DNA of 10,190 bases. Origin: an uncultured delta proteobacterium (GTDB lineage: Bacteria; Desulfobacterota; RBG-13-43-22). How positions within the stretch are numbered: the stretch's first letter is position 1; the number at the start of each line of letters is the position of its first letter. The stretch lies in contig CAWDKY010000040.1 of the NCBI GenBank assembly GCA_963802945.1, positions 1 through 10,190 of the forward strand, written 5' to 3'. The position numbers were made by a program, and so were the translations under genes. The notes beneath the pieces were generated by a model. It saw only the letters and a program-made list of their open reading frames with translations. It did not search any database and was not told the DNA's origin. Shown piece after piece: positions 2,754-10,190 of the stretch.

Positions 2754-3605
2754 ATGATCATCGACATCCATACCCACATCTTCCCTCCTGAAATCTGCCA
2801 AAACCGAGAACGATTTTTCCCTGGAGAGCCAGCTTTTGAGCTTCTGTATCGGGACAAAAAAAAGTCCCCCATGACTAGCGTCGATGGTCTTATTGAAGCC
2901 ATGGACCGAGATGGGATCCAGGCCTCGGTCACCTTCGGATTTCCCTGGAAACAGCCTAAATTGATGCGCCGTTCCAATGACTATGTCTTGGAAGCCATAA
3001 CCATTTATCCGAACCGTCTATTGGGGTTCGTCTGTCTGAATCCGGAAAACCCCGAAGCCCTTGAAGAAGGAGAGCGCTGTTTAAAGGCCGGCCTGAAAGG
3101 GTTGGGGGAGATTGCTCTCTATATGCTCTTGGCCGAGGGCTCCTTTGTTGACCGGATGCGTCCTTTGGTCGAGATGGCCACGAAGTGGAAAGTTCCGGTC
3201 TTGATCCATACCAGCGAACCGGTGGGACATCAGTATCCGGGGAAAGGACACCTGCCATTTACTGAGCTCTATGAATTGATCAAAGCCTTCCCCTCAACTA
3301 TCTTTATCCTGGCCCATTGGGGAGGAGGATTGTGGTGGTATCAATTGATGAAACGGGAAGTTGGGAAGGTTCTGGCCAACACCTATTTTGACACGGCTGC
3401 ATCGCCCTTTCTCTACCGGCCGGAGATCTACGAGCATGCCCTCAAAATAATCGGCGTAGAAAAGATCTTGTATGGAAGCGACTATCCGCTTCTACCACTG
3501 AAGCGGTATTTAAAGGAAATGAATCAGGCCGGGTTGACCAAAAAACAGCAAGCCGCTATCCTGGGTGGGAACAGTCAAAAGGTGTTGGGCTGGCCTGTTT
3601 TTTAG
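2754..3605 (+). CDS. Amidohydrolase family protein (Amidohydro_2-type metal-dependent TIM-barrel hydrolase)
   Basis: N-terminal DIHTH (HxH), GLGE, IHTSE, LAHWGG, YFDTA and GSDYP motifs; 283 aa. Confidence 0.88.
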   Translation: MIIDIHTHIFPPEICQNRERFFPGEPAFELLYRDKKKSPMTSVDGLIEAMDRDGIQASVTFGFPWKQPKLMRRSNDYVLEAITIYPNRLLGFVCLNPENPEALEEGERCLKAGLKGLGEIALYMLLAEGSFVDRMRPLVEMATKWKVPVLIHTSEPVGHQYPGKGHLPFTELYELIKAFPSTIFILAHWGGGLWWYQLMKREVGKVLANTYFDTAASPFLYRPEIYEHALKIIGVEKILYGSDYPLLPLKRYLKEMNQAGLTKKQQAAILGGNSQKVLGWPVF

Positions 3606-4345: not shown

Positions 4346-4819
4346 CTATTTGTTGACTACGGTGATTCTTTTCCGAGTTGTCTCATCCCCTGTGTCAGCA
4401 TACGGTGTCGACTCTTTAGAAGCTTCCTCTTCCCATTCTGATAGCTTGACAGCGGCAGAAGCATTTTTTTCCATGATACAGGAACCATTAAATATTGAAC
4501 CGCTTTCAATAACAATATTGGGTGTCGTGATATTACCAGTATGAACTGCGGTGTTTTTCAATATGACCTGCTCGCTTGCGGTAACATCCCCTTGAACTTC
4601 CCCATGGGATACAAGATTTTTTGTGATAATGGAAGCGGCTACTTTTGCAGTTGGCCCCACTATCAATAAACCTTCCGATATAACCTCACCTTCAAAAATC
4701 CCCTTTATCATTAGAGAACTTTTAAATTTCATGGTGCCGCGAATTTCCAAATCATCGGCAATGACTGTTGTAACTTTTTCTGCGCTGCCTTCGGAAAAAA
4801 ATGGGGGTTTATTACTCAT
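4346..4819 (-). CDS. Bactofilin (polymer-forming cytoskeletal protein, CcmA/BacA family), 157 aa with acidic C-terminal tail
   Basis: Beta-helix repeats TVIADDLEIRG..LMIKGIFEGEV..LIVGPTAKV..HGEVQGDVTA..VIESGSIFNG. Start moved from 4888 to the ATG at 4819 because of the strong RBS AGAGGAGG just upstream and the low-complexity N-rich extension in the longer ORF. Confidence 0.9.
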   Translation of the reverse strand: MSNKPPFFSEGSAEKVTTVIADDLEIRGTMKFKSSLMIKGIFEGEVISEGLLIVGPTAKVAASIITKNLVSHGEVQGDVTASEQVILKNTAVHTGNITTPNIVIESGSIFNGSCIMEKNASAAVKLSEWEEEASKESTPYADTGDETTRKRITVVNK

Positions 4820-4894
4820 GGTTTCCTCCTCTTTATTAATATTGTTATTATTTAAAAATTTTGAAAAAAATTTATTAGATAAGTTCATTGTTTT

Positions 4895-5443: not shown

Positions 5444-6280
5444 ATGTACCGGTTAGGAAAGCTTTTTAAAAAGGCCTTTTTGCCTATTACGATTATGCTT
5501 GTACCCCACACCAATCTGAAACAATTCAGCTTTAGGATCCCTCTTTTAGGGATAATTGTTTCCCTGGTCTTGTTTCTATCCACTTCGGTTTATTTGGTGT
5601 CTGTTGCCGTCGAGAAAAATAAATTTCAAAGGATGGAAAAAAGGCTGAATTATTATCAGAACCAGTTTGAGGGATTGAATAATTCCATACGAGAGATAAA
5701 AAATGCGGAAAATGAATTCAGGCAGTTATTTCGTCTAAAGAGCAAAGAAAAGGTCTTGGAGAGTATTCCTTCCCCTCAAAACGGATCGGTGAATATGGCC
5801 GACTTACGAGATCAGATCCAACCTACAGTGGAAACCGTCAAGAAAATAAAGGAATATCTTTATCAAGAGAGAAATATTTATATGGCCACGCCCAAAGGGC
5901 TTCCAGTGAACGGCACCGTATCCTCTCCGTTTGGCATGCGGGTAAACCCCTTTTCCGGAAAAAAGGAATTTCATCCCGCCTTGGACATCAGAGCCGATAT
6001 AGGGACTCCGGTCAAAACCACTGCTGATGGGGTGGTTAGTTTTGCAGGTTGGACCAAAAGCGGCGGTAATATGGTGGCCATAGAACATGGTTTTGGCTAT
6101 TCCACCTACTATGCCCACAATAAAAAACTGGCTGTTGAAGCCGGCCAGCGGGTTAGAAGAGGGACAGTTATAGCCTATGTGGGGGAAACCGGAAGTGCTA
6201 CCGGCCCTCATTCCCATTACGAGGTCAAAGAAAATGGCAAGTCCGTTGATCCAAGGCAATTTATGGAGAAAGGACAATAA
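5444..6280 (+). CDS. M23 family (LytM) peptidoglycan endopeptidase with N-terminal TM helix and coiled coil (Csd1/LmdC-like architecture)
   Basis: Hydrophobic segment IPLLGIIVSLVLFLSTSVYLVSVAV, then a coiled-coil-like region, SSPFGMRVNP, HPALD (HxxxD), YYAHN, G.TG.ATGPHSHYEV (HxH) and VDP. RBS AAGGA upstream. Confidence 0.93.
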   Translation: MYRLGKLFKKAFLPITIMLVPHTNLKQFSFRIPLLGIIVSLVLFLSTSVYLVSVAVEKNKFQRMEKRLNYYQNQFEGLNNSIREIKNAENEFRQLFRLKSKEKVLESIPSPQNGSVNMADLRDQIQPTVETVKKIKEYLYQERNIYMATPKGLPVNGTVSSPFGMRVNPFSGKKEFHPALDIRADIGTPVKTTADGVVSFAGWTKSGGNMVAIEHGFGYSTYYAHNKKLAVEAGQRVRRGTVIAYVGETGSATGPHSHYEVKENGKSVDPRQFMEKGQ

Positions 6281-6284
6281 TAAG

Positions 6285-6659
6285 ATGTTTAAAAACAACA
6301 AGGGAATTGAGTCTATCATAGGCGTCCAAACAGAGACTAAGGGGGATATAAAGACTAAAGGGACCATCCGGATAGATGGAACCGTTGAAGGGACCCTTGA
6401 AGCCGACTGGATTATTTTAGGGGAATCGGGACATTTTAAAGGAGATATCACCACCCGTGGAGTGATCATCGGGGGAAAAGTTGAAGGCCGAATCAACGCC
6501 GATGAGAGCATTGAGATTAAACCCAAAGGACATATTATCGGGGATGTAACGACTTCAAAATTGATTATATCCGAGGGGGGGATACTGGAAGGTCACTCCA
6601 TAATGCATCATGAGAATTCCACGGTAGTTAAATTTCAACAAAAGAAAGAAGACCAGTAA
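6285..6659 (+). CDS. Bactofilin (CcmA/BacA family), 124 aa
   Basis: SIIG..TKGDIKTKGTIRIDGTVEG..ILGESGHFKGDI..IIGGKVEGRI..GDVTTSKLIISEGGILEG. True start is most likely the ATG at 6285 (4 nt after the M23 stop, AAGGA at 6270-6274), not 6177. Confidence 0.93.
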   Translation: MFKNNKGIESIIGVQTETKGDIKTKGTIRIDGTVEGTLEADWIILGESGHFKGDITTRGVIIGGKVEGRINADESIEIKPKGHIIGDVTTSKLIISEGGILEGHSIMHHENSTVVKFQQKKEDQ

Positions 6660-8996: not shown

Positions 8997-9779
8997 ATGG
9001 ATTCCTTATTCCATCAAACCATCAACGGTCTTTCCTTCTTTCAGTTCCCGTTGTTTCAATCCATACCGGGATTGACTCATGGAATCTTCACCCGTCATGG
9101 CGGGAAAAGCCAAGGGGCTTACGCCAGTCTTAATTTAAGTTTTTCAGTGGGCGATGACCAACAAAAGGTGGTTGATAACAGGGAACTGCTGCTGAAAACC
9201 TTAGGAATCCCCGGCCTTCAGAGTCTAAAACAGGTGCATGGCAAAGAAACGGTGGAAATTCAAGACCAACCGTCCAAACAGTCACATTCGGCCCCGGAAT
9301 CAACATCCGGAGACATCCTGATGACCCAGGTGCCGAAACAGGGCTTGATGGTTAAACAAGCCGATTGTCAGTCCATTCTGCTCTATGACCCTGTTCACAA
9401 GGCCATTGCCAATGCTCATTGCGGCTGGCGGGGAAACGTGAATAATGTTATCGGGGAAGCCGTCAGAAAAATGAGGAAGGTTTATAAGACCAAACCATCC
9501 AGTCTGTTGGCGGGAATAGGACCCTCTCTGGGACCTTGTTGTGCCCAGTTCATCAATTACAAAAAGGAAATACCGGCCAAATATTGGACCTACCAGGTCC
9601 GCCCCTATTATTTTGATCTCTGGCGTTTAAGTCGGGATCAGTTGATGGCCGCCGGGGTTTTAGAGGACCATATTGAGATTGCCGGTATCTGCACCTCCTG
9701 CCGGACCAAAGACTTTTTTTCCTTTCGGAAGGAAAAGAAAACCGGCCGTTTTGCGACCGTTATTGCTTTAGGTGTATAA
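8997..9779 (+). CDS. pgeF: PgeF/YfiH family protein (peptidoglycan editing factor; laccase-domain, FAMIN-like purine nucleoside enzyme)
   Basis: FTRHGG, SLNL, QVHG, ADC, HCGWRG, IGPSLGPCC, FDL, CTSC, FFSFR and TGR motifs; 260 aa. Confidence 0.92.
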   Translation: MDSLFHQTINGLSFFQFPLFQSIPGLTHGIFTRHGGKSQGAYASLNLSFSVGDDQQKVVDNRELLLKTLGIPGLQSLKQVHGKETVEIQDQPSKQSHSAPESTSGDILMTQVPKQGLMVKQADCQSILLYDPVHKAIANAHCGWRGNVNNVIGEAVRKMRKVYKTKPSSLLAGIGPSLGPCCAQFINYKKEIPAKYWTYQVRPYYFDLWRLSRDQLMAAGVLEDHIEIAGICTSCRTKDFFSFRKEKKTGRFATVIALGV

Positions 9780-9911
9780 GTCAGGATTTGACTATACAGG
9801 CATTGTCAAGTGTGATGAAGACTTCTTCCTTGTTTATTCCAGTCAATAGTTTTTTATCTTTAAAGGCGTTATAGGTTTTGATTTACCAGGGGGGTTCCCC
9901 ATCGCTCTATG

Positions 9912-10096
9912 ACATCCTACCCAACCCTTGTGATTCGAAAGTCGTCTGAGAGACGCTTTGACCTTGCTTAATTGGAGTTAGGATGTTGACGGGGAGTCAT
10001 GAACTCTGTACTGGGAGGTCGCTTAAACGCCTCAATGGAAGAAAACGATGATCTCCCCGCCTGTGTGCTCATCCCTTAGGCCGCCTTTTTGAGCAC
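9912..10096 (-). ncRNA. Candidate bridge RNA / seekRNA
   Basis: 5' hairpin GTGCTCA/TGAGCAC (10096-10065). Stem-loop 1 (10061-9988) has a 14x14-nt internal loop. Stem-loop 2 (9986-9912) has a large internal loop. Both are capped by the same motif: 4 bp, a 3' bulged A, then a CG-started hairpin. Loop segments match the flanking junction. Confidence 0.65.
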
Positions 10097-10189
10097 CCTT
10101 CTTTCGAGGGTTTGATATTGTCCCACATAGTCGGTGTTGTCCCGAACGATGGCATGGATGATAGCAATACGTAATAGTTGTTTGAGTGA
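10076..10189 (-). CDS. C-terminal 37 aa of a probable IS110-family transposase (start outside the window, possibly truncated)
   Basis: Open frame SLKQLLRIAIIHAIVRDNTDYVGQYQTLERRVLKKAA*. It resembles the IS110 C-terminal helix (RKLL.II.A.VRD...Y) and the KKAA-type ending. Too short for the ORF track; no catalytic motifs are visible. Confidence 0.55.
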   Translation of the reverse strand, partial: SLKQLLRIAIIHAIVRDNTDYVGQYQTLERRVLKKAA

Positions 10190-10190
10190 G

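What the first reader, a model, noticed from the sequence alone, without database searches (positions are those of the whole stretch)
9912..10096. Candidate new bridge RNA/seekRNA: twin internal-loop stem-loops downstream of an IS110-like transposase
Seen (minus strand): (i) a 7-bp hairpin GUGCUCA/UGAGCAC enclosing the transposase stop codon. (ii) Stem GGCGGGGAG-a-UCAU / AUGA-CUCCCCGUC, a 14x14 internal loop (CGUUUUCUUCCAUU / CCAGUACAGAGUUC) and cap GAGG-CGU-uuaa-GCG-a-CCUC. (iii) One nt later, stem ACAUCCUA/UAGGAUGU with an imperfect extension, an internal loop (AAGCAAGGUC / CGAAUCACAA) and cap AAAG-CGUCU-cuc-AGACG-a-CUUU. The two domains differ in sequence but share architecture, including the bulged A, as expected for two binding sites of the same protein. 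Known: IS110-family recombinases use a bispecific ncRNA with target- and donor-binding loops, and in IS1111-type elements the non-coding region lies downstream of the gene. Inference: a natural RNA-guided recombination guide from a little-sampled lineage, with a readable and potentially reprogrammable specificity. Whether this subfamily is already described cannot be judged here.
Basis: partly seen in the sequence, partly recalled or inferred. Interest (0 to 1): 0.88.

Follow-up and report, generated by a model that had tools for sequence, protein, structure and literature searches.

The report
Bridge RNA of an IS110-family element
The two stem-loops are a real, conserved guide RNA (bridge RNA or seekRNA) at the right end of an IS110-family insertion sequence, with loops that match its insertion site and its own ends, so this is a new example of a mechanism described in 2024.

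Summary
The window is a whole contig that ends inside an IS110-family transposase gene, so only the last 37 codons are present. A full 423-aa paralogue on contig C32 carries both IS110 Pfam domains. The 245-nt non-coding right end (9831-10075, minus strand) holds both stem-loops exactly as described. Across 25 distinct homologues, 96.7% of pair cells are paired and 22 of 45 pairs show compensatory changes. Copies in multi-copy genomes place the right terminus at 9831, with a shared AG core at 9830-9829. The target is a roughly 110-nt intergenic repeat that reads TTC-AG-GAAGAAG when empty.

- **Stem-loop 1** is the target-binding loop. Its 5' strand pairs with the right flank (six guide classes, cognate 7.2 of 9 against 4.6). 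Its 3' strand copies the left flank plus core and tracks natural flank variants.
- **Stem-loop 2** is the donor-binding loop. Its 3' strand matches the right-end terminus in 27 of 27 loci (three states). Its 5' strand is complementary to the invariant left end.

Bridge RNAs were already predicted in the right ends of 93% of IS1111 elements, so this is a new member of a known kind. Unusual points are the 423-aa recombinase and a covarying alternative pairing that competes with stem-loop 1. Expression and activity are untested.

The parts
10076..10190 (-). 3' end of the IS110-family transposase gene: last 37 codons plus the TAA stop at 10078-10076. The gene is cut by the contig end.
   Evidence: Open frame. 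It is 80% identical over 30 aa to the C-terminus of the full 423-aa copy on C32, which carries PF01548 and PF02371 and NF033542.
10065..10096 (-). 7-bp hairpin enclosing the stop codon (GUGCUCA / UGAGCAC).
   Evidence: Sequence. Moderately conserved: 76.8% of cells paired on 16 homologues against 64.6% shuffled, and 5 of 7 pairs (helix 1) change on both sides. Role unknown; it could be the 5' boundary or a processing site of the RNA.
9988..10061 (-). Stem-loop 1, the target-binding domain (74 nt): lower stem, internal loop and cap.
   Evidence: helix 1 is 93.2% paired and the cap helix 100% paired, with compensatory changes.
10037..10046 (-). Right target guide (5' strand of loop 1, GUUUUCUUCC). 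[quoted passage not shown]
   Evidence: 8 Watson-Crick pairs plus 1 G-U out of 10 with the window's own flank; six guide classes, cognate mean 7.2 of 9 against non-cognate 4.6, and 2 of 720 class permutations as good.
10006..10014 (-). Left target guide plus core (3' strand of loop 1, CCAGUAC-AG). It has the same sense as the left flank plus the AG core, so it pairs with the bottom strand.
   Evidence: The AG sits at a fixed position in the loci with a detected cap, offset by 2 nt in L036. The last 5 nt match the left flank at 3.84 of 5 against 2.39 shuffled (0 of 10000, 25 loci). Natural variants GUAC, UUAC and UUUC match flanks GTAC, TTAC and TTTC.
9912..9986 (-). Stem-loop 2, the donor-binding domain (75 nt).
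   Evidence: helix 4 is 98.1% paired with 8 of 15 pairs compensatory. The cap helix is 100% paired with 4 of 7 pairs compensatory.
9962..9969 (-). Right donor guide (5' strand of loop 2, AAGCAAGG). Its AGCAAG is complementary to CTTGCT at the left end of the element.
   Evidence: The left end starts AG|CTTGCTATATT in all loci where it was found. The guide is near-invariant, so there is complementarity but no covariation. The repeat finder I1 reports this pairing.
9927..9937 (-). Left donor guide plus core (3' strand of loop 2, CGAAUCACA-AG). It has the same sense as the right-end terminus ...ACA plus the AG core.
   Evidence: the 3 nt before the core equal the last 3 nt of the right end in 27 of 27 loci, in three states (ACA 13, ACC 10, ATA 4).
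9886..9904 (-). Segment complementary to the 5' flank plus 5' strand of the stem-loop 1 lower stem (an alternative pairing, or 'anti-stem').
   Evidence: it covaries among 20 close homologues (cognate 8.15 of 10 against 6.7, 0 of 10000 shuffles). It is adopted in the MFE of the C32 copy but not the window copy, which has one mismatch.
9831..9846 (-). Right-end terminus with an outward-facing -35 box (TTGACT 9846-9841, then GGAATAAACA ending at 9831).
   Evidence: TTGAC is invariant in 16 of 16 aligned right ends. The boundary comes from 5 copies in one genome and 7 in another. Joined to the left end, it would give TTGACT-17 nt-TATATT (inference).
9829..9830 (-). AG core dinucleotide shared by target and donor.
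   Evidence: AG stands at both junctions in every locus examined. It also stands in most of the 14 empty repeat copies of the same genome, 8 of which read TTC-AG at the site.
9778..9828 (-). Right half of the target, a roughly 110-nt intergenic repeat.
   Evidence: 21 BLAST hits to the repeat in the genome, including the window's own copy and the C32 copy. A regex pass found 14 unoccupied copies with both halves. The left half is seen upstream of the C32 copy and of copies in a related genome.

Best explanation
Window 9831-10190 (minus strand) is the right part of an insertion sequence of about 1.6 kb from the IS110 family, with the IS1111-like layout. The assembly broke inside the element.

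Its 245-nt non-coding right end encodes a bispecific guide RNA (bridge RNA, or long seekRNA) of about 150 nt.

- **Stem-loop 1** is the target-binding loop. [quoted passage not shown] - **Stem-loop 2** is the donor-binding loop. Its 5' strand pairs with the left end of the element (CTTGCT). Its 3' strand pairs with the complement of the right-end terminus (ACA plus AG).

Bound to the DEDD/serine recombinase, the RNA would bring the circularised element (right end-AG-left end) together with a TTC/TAC-AG-GAAGAAG site inside a roughly 110-nt intergenic repeat. Strands are exchanged at the AG core, and insertion leaves no duplication other than the core.

Circularisation would also assemble a TTGACT-17-TATATT promoter, which would drive the transposase gene and, by read-through, the RNA.

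**Shown here:**
- the conserved structure;
- stem covariation;
- the element boundaries;
- loop-target and loop-donor complementarity and covariation.

**Inferred from the described family:**
- that the strand is transcribed;
- that the RNA binds the recombinase;
- the recombination chemistry;
- the junction promoter.
For: **Recombinase**
- The full paralogue on C32 has PF01548 and PF02371 and NF033542.
- It aligns with the IS621 transposase chains in PDB 8wt6, including the KTD..D and SG motifs.

**Structure**
- MFE z = -3.98.
- 22 of 45 pairs are compensatory.
- 96.7% of cells are paired, 0 of 500 shuffles reach that, and slid controls give 41-45%.
- The covariance model finds it next to the transposase gene in both copies of this genome, and in 8 of 41 related genomes counting this one, with up to 10 copies per genome.

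**Boundaries**
- They come from 5 and 7 copies in two genomes and from 27 right-end junctions.
- 14 empty target copies lie in the same genome.

**Right target guide**
- 8 Watson-Crick pairs plus 1 G-U out of 10 with the window's own flank.
- Cognate 7.2 of 9 against non-cognate 4.6 over six guide classes, with 2 of 720 permutations as good.

**Left target guide**
- 3.84 of 5 against 2.39, 0 of 10000 shuffles.
- Within the closest class, 4.2 against 3.74, 68 of 10000.

**Left donor guide**
- 27 of 27 loci match, in three states.

**Literature**
- The same logic is published for IS621 (left target guide to bottom strand, right target guide to top strand, core included): PMC11208160, passages read.
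- The strand order and the 3' location match IS1111 seekRNAs, whose long forms are 145-170 nt and short forms 70-100 nt (PMC11187229, sections 8, 9, 12 and 14 read). Here the two domains span 150 nt and stem-loop 1 spans 74 nt.
Against: - **No proof of transcription, processing or protein binding.** The only RNA-library evidence is one 247-nt metatranscriptome contig from a relative (28 differences), which may be DNA carry-over.
- **No own promoter.** None was found upstream of the RNA.
- **Incomplete copy.** The window's copy lacks its transposase gene and left end in the assembly, so its integrity and its left flank are unknown.
- **C32 mismatch.** The C32 copy's left target guide mismatches its own left flank at 1 of the last 5 positions.
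- **Single-copy distant homologues.** Three of them pair out of register or weakly: L036 offset by 1, L046 offset by 3, L050 6 of 9.
- **Right donor guide.** It is invariant and does not pair with the core G, so it has no covariation support.
- **Competing pairing.** In 8 of 20 close homologues the predicted MFE of the longer RNA breaks the lower stem of stem-loop 1 in favour of the alternative pairing.
- **No Rfam model matches**.
Confidence: 0.9

Rival explanations
1. The right-end RNA gene is a passenger or selfish small-RNA module that rides on the element and is not needed for transposition. This is reported for Ssr9 downstream of the ISPpu9 transposase gene.
For: The precedent is PMC12288879 (abstract read): Ssr9 lies downstream of an IS110-family transposase gene, is not required for transposition, and also occurs as solo copies. 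In L023 the RNA region is interrupted by about 1.24 kb, which shows that copies with a broken RNA persist.
Against: The loop strands match and covary with the flanks and the element ends, which a passenger has no reason to do. In this genome the model finds only the two transposase-linked copies and no solo copies.
Confidence: 0.03
2. The conserved hairpins act as DNA, as cruciforms or single-strand hairpins at the right end bound by the transposase (like the subterminal repeats or the ends of IS200/IS605 elements), rather than as RNA.
For: Covariation analysis cannot tell DNA hairpins from RNA hairpins. There are also DNA-level inverted repeats between the right-end terminus and the left end.
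Against: G-U pairs are kept in the stems: pairs 99-153 and 100-152 are U-G in 25 and 23 of 25 sequences, and pair 5-81 is G-U in 15. On the opposite DNA strand these would be A-C mismatches. The strand-specific arrangement of the guides equals that of the experimentally shown RNAs (PMC11208160, PMC11187229).
Confidence: 0.03
3. The structures are an ordinary 3' untranslated element of the transposase mRNA (a stabiliser, terminator or translational regulator) with no guide role.
For: They lie directly after the stop codon, and a hairpin encloses the stop. No separate promoter was found.
Against: No U-tract follows either stem-loop. The terminator scan picked up only the stem-loop 2 cap in C32 and nothing at these stem-loops in the window. 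A stabiliser does not explain internal-loop strands that change together with the insertion site.
Confidence: 0.02

Closest known systems
seekRNAs / bridge RNAs of IS1111-group elements (ISEc11, ISPa11, ISKpn4; Siddiquee et al. 2024, PMC11187229; predicted for 93.0% of ISfinder IS1111 elements by Durrant et al. 2024, PMC11208160)
   Same: - Encoded in the longer non-coding region downstream of the transposase gene.
- The top-strand match lies 5' of the bottom-strand match.
- Sizes agree: 150 nt for both domains and 74 nt for the target domain, against reported long forms of 145-170 nt and short forms of 70-100 nt.
- The target is a repeated intergenic element.
- A promoter is expected at the circle junction.
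   Different: - The transposase is 423 aa, against the reported 330-350 aa for IS1111 transposases.
- The inverted repeat pairs the very right-end terminus with a site 65-74 nt inside the left end, rather than two subterminal sites.
- No sequence or Rfam relationship was detected.
- Group phylogeny was not tested.
IS621 bridge RNA (IS110 group; Durrant et al. 2024, Hiraizumi et al. 2024)
   Same: - Two internal loops, one for the target and one for the donor.
[quoted passage not shown]
- The core dinucleotide is repeated in the guides.
- The recombinase has DEDD and Transposase_20 domains (phmmer E = 1.4e-9 to 8wt6).
   Different: - The RNA lies in the right end (3' of the gene), not the left end.
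- The order of the two guide strands in the loop is reversed.
- The core is AG here. IS621's CT core is recalled, not taken from a call.
- The recombinase is about 95 aa longer.
- The right donor guide does not pair with the core.
Ssr9 small RNA downstream of the ISPpu9 transposase gene (PMC12288879, abstract read)
   Same: A small-RNA gene downstream of an IS110-family transposase gene, in an element that inserts into repeated extragenic sequences.
   Different: Ssr9 is dispensable and also occurs as solo modules. Here no solo copies were found and the loops match target and donor.

Membership tests
IS110-family RNA-guided recombination system (bridge RNA / seekRNA) | Adjacent recombinase with an N-terminal DEDD (RuvC-like) domain and a C-terminal Transposase_20 domain | tested here: met
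   PF01548 at 4.7e-28 and PF02371 at 1.4e-20 on the full C32 paralogue. NF033542 at 199.7 bits, cutoff 140. The window itself holds only the last 37 codons.
IS110-family RNA-guided recombination system (bridge RNA / seekRNA) | Structured non-coding RNA in a non-coding end, with two internal loops | tested here: met
   45 pairs, 22 compensatory, 96.7% paired, 0 of 500 shuffles.
IS110-family RNA-guided recombination system (bridge RNA / seekRNA) | One loop complementary to both halves of the target (left half bottom strand, right half top strand), core included, and covarying with it | tested here: met
   right guide cognate 7.2 of 9 against 4.6. Left guide 3.84 of 5 against 2.39, 0 of 10000. 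AG core at a fixed loop position.
IS110-family RNA-guided recombination system (bridge RNA / seekRNA) | Second loop complementary to the joined ends of the element (the donor) | tested here: met
   The left donor guide equals the right-end terminus in 27 of 27 loci, in three states. The right donor guide AGCAAG is complementary to the left end CTTGCT; both are invariant, so there is no covariation.
IS110-family RNA-guided recombination system (bridge RNA / seekRNA) | The RNA is expressed and bound by the recombinase, and is required for recombination | not testable with these tools
   Only one metatranscriptome contig of a relative covers 9921-10162. This is no proof of transcription.
IS1111 group of the IS110 family | Longer non-coding region downstream of the transposase gene | tested here: met
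   C32 copy: 94 nt from the left terminus to the ATG, and 245 nt from the stop to the right terminus.
IS1111 group of the IS110 family | Top-strand match 5' of the bottom-strand match in the RNA | tested here: met
   compared with PMC11187229 sections 9 and 12.
IS1111 group of the IS110 family | Subterminal inverted repeats of 7-17 bp | tested here: inconclusive
   A perfect 10-bp inverted repeat joins the right-end terminus to a site 65-74 nt inside the left end (I15). It covaries with right-end variants. Its position is not the usual one near both termini.
IS1111 group of the IS110 family | Transposase of about 330-350 aa that clusters with IS1111 transposases | tested here: not met
   Length is 423 aa. 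The best full-length relatives in the plasmid collection are long IS110-family proteins: 429 aa at 35.8% identity, and the ISBth13 family at 27.5%. A tree with labelled references was not made.
Any Rfam family | Score at or above a family's gathering threshold | tested here: not met
   No match at gathering score. Only chance-level matches at E up to 10.

The most novel reading that the evidence does not exclude
This clade is a separate lineage: IS110-family recombinases of about 420 aa that use a 3'-encoded bridge RNA in the IS1111 strand order. Its RNA carries a built-in, covarying anti-stem (window 9886-9904) that competes with the lower stem of the target-binding domain. The long co-transcript would then be held in an inactive fold until 3' processing or protein binding frees the target loop. 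That would be an RNA conformational switch coupling guide maturation to recombination.
Probability: 0.15. Interest if true: 0.6.

Novelty: new member of a known kind. Interest (0 to 1): 0.35.

Why it matters
It adds a well-delimited natural family of RNA-guided recombinases from anaerobic soil and sediment lineages (Desulfobacterota-type and Nitrospirota genomes by their record titles). The ends, the AG core, the target and both guide loops are all readable.

The family contains a natural series of retargeted guides. There are six right-guide classes, and single-base left-guide variants are matched by their flanks. This is the kind of data used to derive programming rules for bridge recombinases.

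It does not change the understanding of the mechanism. The long recombinase and the covarying alternative pairing are the only points a specialist might follow up.

Tried and rejected
- **Rfam.** Nothing at gathering score on the window and L002. Only chance-level hits at E up to 10 on 9700-10190 and on an empty repeat copy.
- **Public reads.** All 20 holders carry small shares of the words, 0.14 at most. Four runs were laid. DNA contigs of relatives cover the conserved RNA part. One RNA-library contig (X19, 247 nt, 28 differences) spans 9921-10162, and one contig of a library recorded as RNA but probably DNA (X20, 181 nt) spans 10007-10162. Contigs cannot show transcription, ends or strand.
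- **BLAST of the C32 left flank against the genome.** It gave only low-complexity hits. The left half of the repeat was recognised only after multi-copy genomes fixed the boundary.
- **Core dinucleotide.** My first guess, CA, was dropped. AG fits both junctions in all classes and most of the empty sites, 8 of 14 of which read TTC-AG.
- **Fixed-register pairing of the right guide.** It fails for L036, L046 and L050 at 3-4 of 10. With free offset they reach 7, 8 and 6 of 9. These are single copies whose boundaries rest on a motif.
- **Covariance model R1.** No match at E up to 1 in the nearest plasmid-borne relatives (Lachnospira L054, ISBth13 L055), nor in L051, L028 or L044. The fold of the L054 3' region has z = -0.23.
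- **Empty orthologous site.** In 5 related genomes the locus downstream of the Cu-oxidase_4 gene has neither the repeat nor the element. There is therefore no direct before-and-after pair for this insertion.
- **Constrained folds.** The 'tail blocked' energies are unusable because the block clipped stem-loop 2. Only the unconstrained MFE classes are used.
- **Phylogeny.** No tree against labelled IS110 and IS1111 references was made, because no labelled reference sequences were on hand.
- **Supplements.** Supplementary tables of the two 2024 papers, which may list this clade, could not be seen.

Full report
**What is in the window.**
The window is the whole of contig C40 of its assembly. On the minus strand the contig starts inside an open frame that ends with TAA at 10078-10076. 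Only 37 codons are present. A second copy, about 92% identical in DNA, lies on contig C32 and is complete. It encodes a 423-aa protein with Pfam DEDD_Tnp_IS110 (4.7e-28) and Transposase_20 (1.4e-20). It scores 199.7 bits on NCBIfam NF033542 'IS110 family RNA-guided transposase', cutoff 140. It aligns with the IS621 transposase of PDB 8wt6 (E = 1.4e-9), including the KTD..D and SG motifs. The rest of the window carries ordinary chromosomal genes: RNase E/G, an amidohydrolase, two bactofilins, an M23 peptidase, both subunits of dihydroorotate dehydrogenase B and a Cu-oxidase_4 protein.

**The observation.**
The fold of 9899-10063(-) reproduces both domains, with z = -3.98 and 0 of 200 shuffles as stable.

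**Related copies.**
A scan of one genome per species returned 43 loci whose transposases are 32-91% identical to the C32 protein. By their titles they come from Desulfobacterota-type, Nitrospirota, Terriglobia and Bacillota assemblies. 25 distinct 165-nt stretches downstream of the gene were found. I aligned 23 of them plus the two copies of this genome. I left out L023, whose second domain is replaced, and L031, which is nearly identical to L030.

RNAalifold returns the two domains with 45 pairs, 22 of them with compensatory changes. In one search, 96.7% of cells are paired against 88.8% in shuffles (0 of 500) and 41-45% when partners are slid. The stop-codon hairpin is kept less well, at 76.8% against 64.6% on 16 sequences. 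A covariance model of the two domains finds only the two transposase-linked copies in this genome. It finds the RNA in 8 of 41 related genomes counting this one: 7 of 20 genomes of the same family and 0 of 20 of other families in the phylum. Some genomes carry up to 10 copies.

**Ends, core and target.**
Five copies in one related genome and seven in another show where identity stops. The element begins CTTGCTATATT and ends ...TTGAC(N)GGAATAAACA. AG stands at both junctions. In the window the last base of the right end is 9831 and the AG is 9830-9829.

What follows (9828-9778) is the right half of a roughly 110-nt intergenic repeat. The repeat gives 21 BLAST hits in the genome, counting the window's own copy and the C32 copy. 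A regex pass found 14 unoccupied copies with both halves, and 8 of them read TTC-AG-G(A/C)AAG at the site. The left half of the repeat stands upstream of the C32 copy and of the copies in the related genome. The element therefore inserts at an AG inside this repeat. Apart from that AG, nothing at the two junctions is duplicated.

**The loops read target and donor.**

*Loop 1, 5' strand.* The strand at 10046-10037 forms 8 Watson-Crick pairs plus 1 G-U out of 10 with core-G plus the window's own right flank. The homologues fall into six classes of this strand. With free offset, each class matches its own right flank at a mean of 7.2 of 9 and other classes' flanks at 4.6. Only 2 of 720 class permutations are as good. 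The clearest case is the seven-copy genome, where ACCCUCCCC faces GGGGAGGG(T).

*Loop 1, 3' strand.* In the loci with a detected cap it carries AG at a fixed position, offset by 2 nt in L036. The five bases before the AG equal the left flank at 3.84 of 5 against 2.39 for shuffled pairings (0 of 10000, 25 loci). Within the closest class the figures are 4.2 against 3.74 (68 of 10000). Natural single-base variants agree:
- GUAC with GTAC in L011 and L026;
- UUAC with TTAC in L009, L010, L012-L015, L038 and L040;
- UUUC with TTTC in L017.

The misses are C32 (one mismatch), L019, L023 and L035.

*Loop 2, 3' strand.* It ends in AG. The three bases before the AG equal the last three bases of the right end in 27 of 27 loci, in three states: ACA 13, ACC 10, ATA 4.

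*Loop 2, 5' strand.* It contains AGCAAG, complementary to the invariant CTTGCT of the left end. Being invariant, this pairing has no covariation support, and it does not include the core G.

**How it most likely works.**
The arrangement is that of the published bridge RNA. [quoted passage not shown] Here the strand that pairs with the top strand comes first. That is the order reported for IS1111-type seekRNAs and the reverse of IS110-type ones (PMC11187229, sections 9 and 12).

The two domains span 150 nt and the first alone 74 nt. The reported long forms are 145-170 nt and the short forms 70-100 nt (same paper, sections 8 and 14). Joining the ends would place the invariant TTGAC(T) of the right end 17 nt from the TATATT of the left end. 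Such junction promoters are described for these elements (same paper, sections 8 and 12).

No separate promoter for the RNA was found. Co-transcription with the transposase gene followed by processing is therefore the likely route. This step, protein binding and the chemistry are all inferred, not shown.

**Comparison and novelty.**
The kind is known. Bridge RNAs were predicted in the right ends of 93.0% of ISfinder IS1111 elements (PMC11208160). NCBI already names the protein family 'RNA-guided transposase'.

This clade differs from the textbook IS1111 group in three ways:
- **Transposase length.** It is 423 aa, against the reported 330-350 aa.
- **Nearest relatives.** The closest plasmid-borne relatives are long IS110-family proteins at 36% identity or less.
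- **Inverted repeat.** It joins the very right-end terminus to a site 65-74 nt inside the left end, and it covaries.

I could not place the clade on a labelled tree or see the papers' supplements. Whether this exact clade is listed somewhere therefore remains open. No Rfam model matches.

**An unexplained feature.**
In the 20 closest homologues a segment 17-19 nt after the second domain (window 9886-9904) is complementary to the 5' flank plus 5' strand of the first domain's lower stem. It covaries with that region through five variant groups of the 5' segment: cognate 8.15 of 10 against 6.7, 0 of 10000 shuffles.

The predicted MFE of the longer RNA takes this alternative pairing in 8 of 20 sequences, the canonical one in 8 and mixed forms in 4. 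The C32 copy takes the alternative. The window copy, with one mismatch, stays canonical. The more distant classes lack the segment. It may be an anti-stem that keeps the long transcript inactive, but nothing here tests that.

**Limits.**
- There is no evidence of expression beyond one relative's contig in an RNA library.
- The window's copy is incomplete in the assembly.
- Three single-copy distant homologues pair out of register.
- Related genomes have neither the repeat nor the element at the orthologous locus, so this particular insertion has no empty-site control.

Noticed in passing
window 9778-9830, and G000 contigs C12, C13, C15, C27, C32, C33, C34, C39, C53, C66: A roughly 110-nt intergenic repeat family with a variable left half and a conserved right half; 14 unoccupied copies with both halves were found. 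It has no Rfam match. At the orthologous locus of 5 related genomes the repeat is absent, so the repeat itself looks mobile or recently spread. Its right half can pair GAAGAAGUC with GACUUUC about 45 nt downstream.
   Followed up: partly
window 9886-9904 (minus strand): A covarying segment complementary to the 5' strand of the lower stem of stem-loop 1. It gives an alternative fold of nearly equal predicted stability in the close homologues.
   Followed up: partly
L002 3092-3101 and 1555-1564 (C32 copy): A perfect 10-bp inverted repeat joins the right-end terminus (GGAATAAACA) to a site 65-74 nt inside the left end, just upstream of the ribosome-binding site. It covaries with right-end variants in L016, L040 and L035.
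   Followed up: partly
L002 3070-3080 and 3111-3121 (C32 copy, left end): An inverted repeat (ATCTCCTCCTT / AAGGAGGATAT, 91%) whose transcript could pair the ribosome-binding site of the transposase gene with an upstream CCUCCUU. This suggests translational control (I20).
   Followed up: no
L023 2782-2887 and 4127-4227: In this homologue the model matches in two pieces about 1.24 kb apart. The RNA gene is split between the two domains by an insertion.
   Followed up: no
L016 about 3018-3040; L046 about 2504-2520: In L016 the right end plus AG is followed by CTTGCTAT, the start of a left end. This looks like a right end-left end junction or the remnant of a tandem copy. L046's right flank also starts CTTG, and its guide match is offset by 3 nt.
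   Followed up: no
G000 contig C33, about 58705 (minus strand): An unoccupied repeat copy reads AGTAC-AG-GAAGAAGTC. This fits both target guides of the window's RNA without a mismatch in the last 5 left-flank bases, so it is a predicted free target in the same genome.
   Followed up: no
G000 contig C53, 48791-49195: A second, distant IS110-family C-terminal match, 34% identical over 135 aa to the C32 transposase. It has no match to the RNA model.
   Followed up: no
L065 (G005:C45), just downstream of the Cu-oxidase_4 gene: The closest relative has ATAAACAAGG 6 nt from the point where homology with the window resumes. These 10 bases are identical to the window's right-end terminus plus core. 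It could be chance or a remnant of an element.
   Followed up: no
window 4346-4888(-), 5444-6280(+), 6177-6659(+): Two bactofilin genes flank an M23 peptidase gene. The peptidase and the second bactofilin open frames overlap by about 100 nt as listed, so one start is probably further downstream.
   Followed up: no
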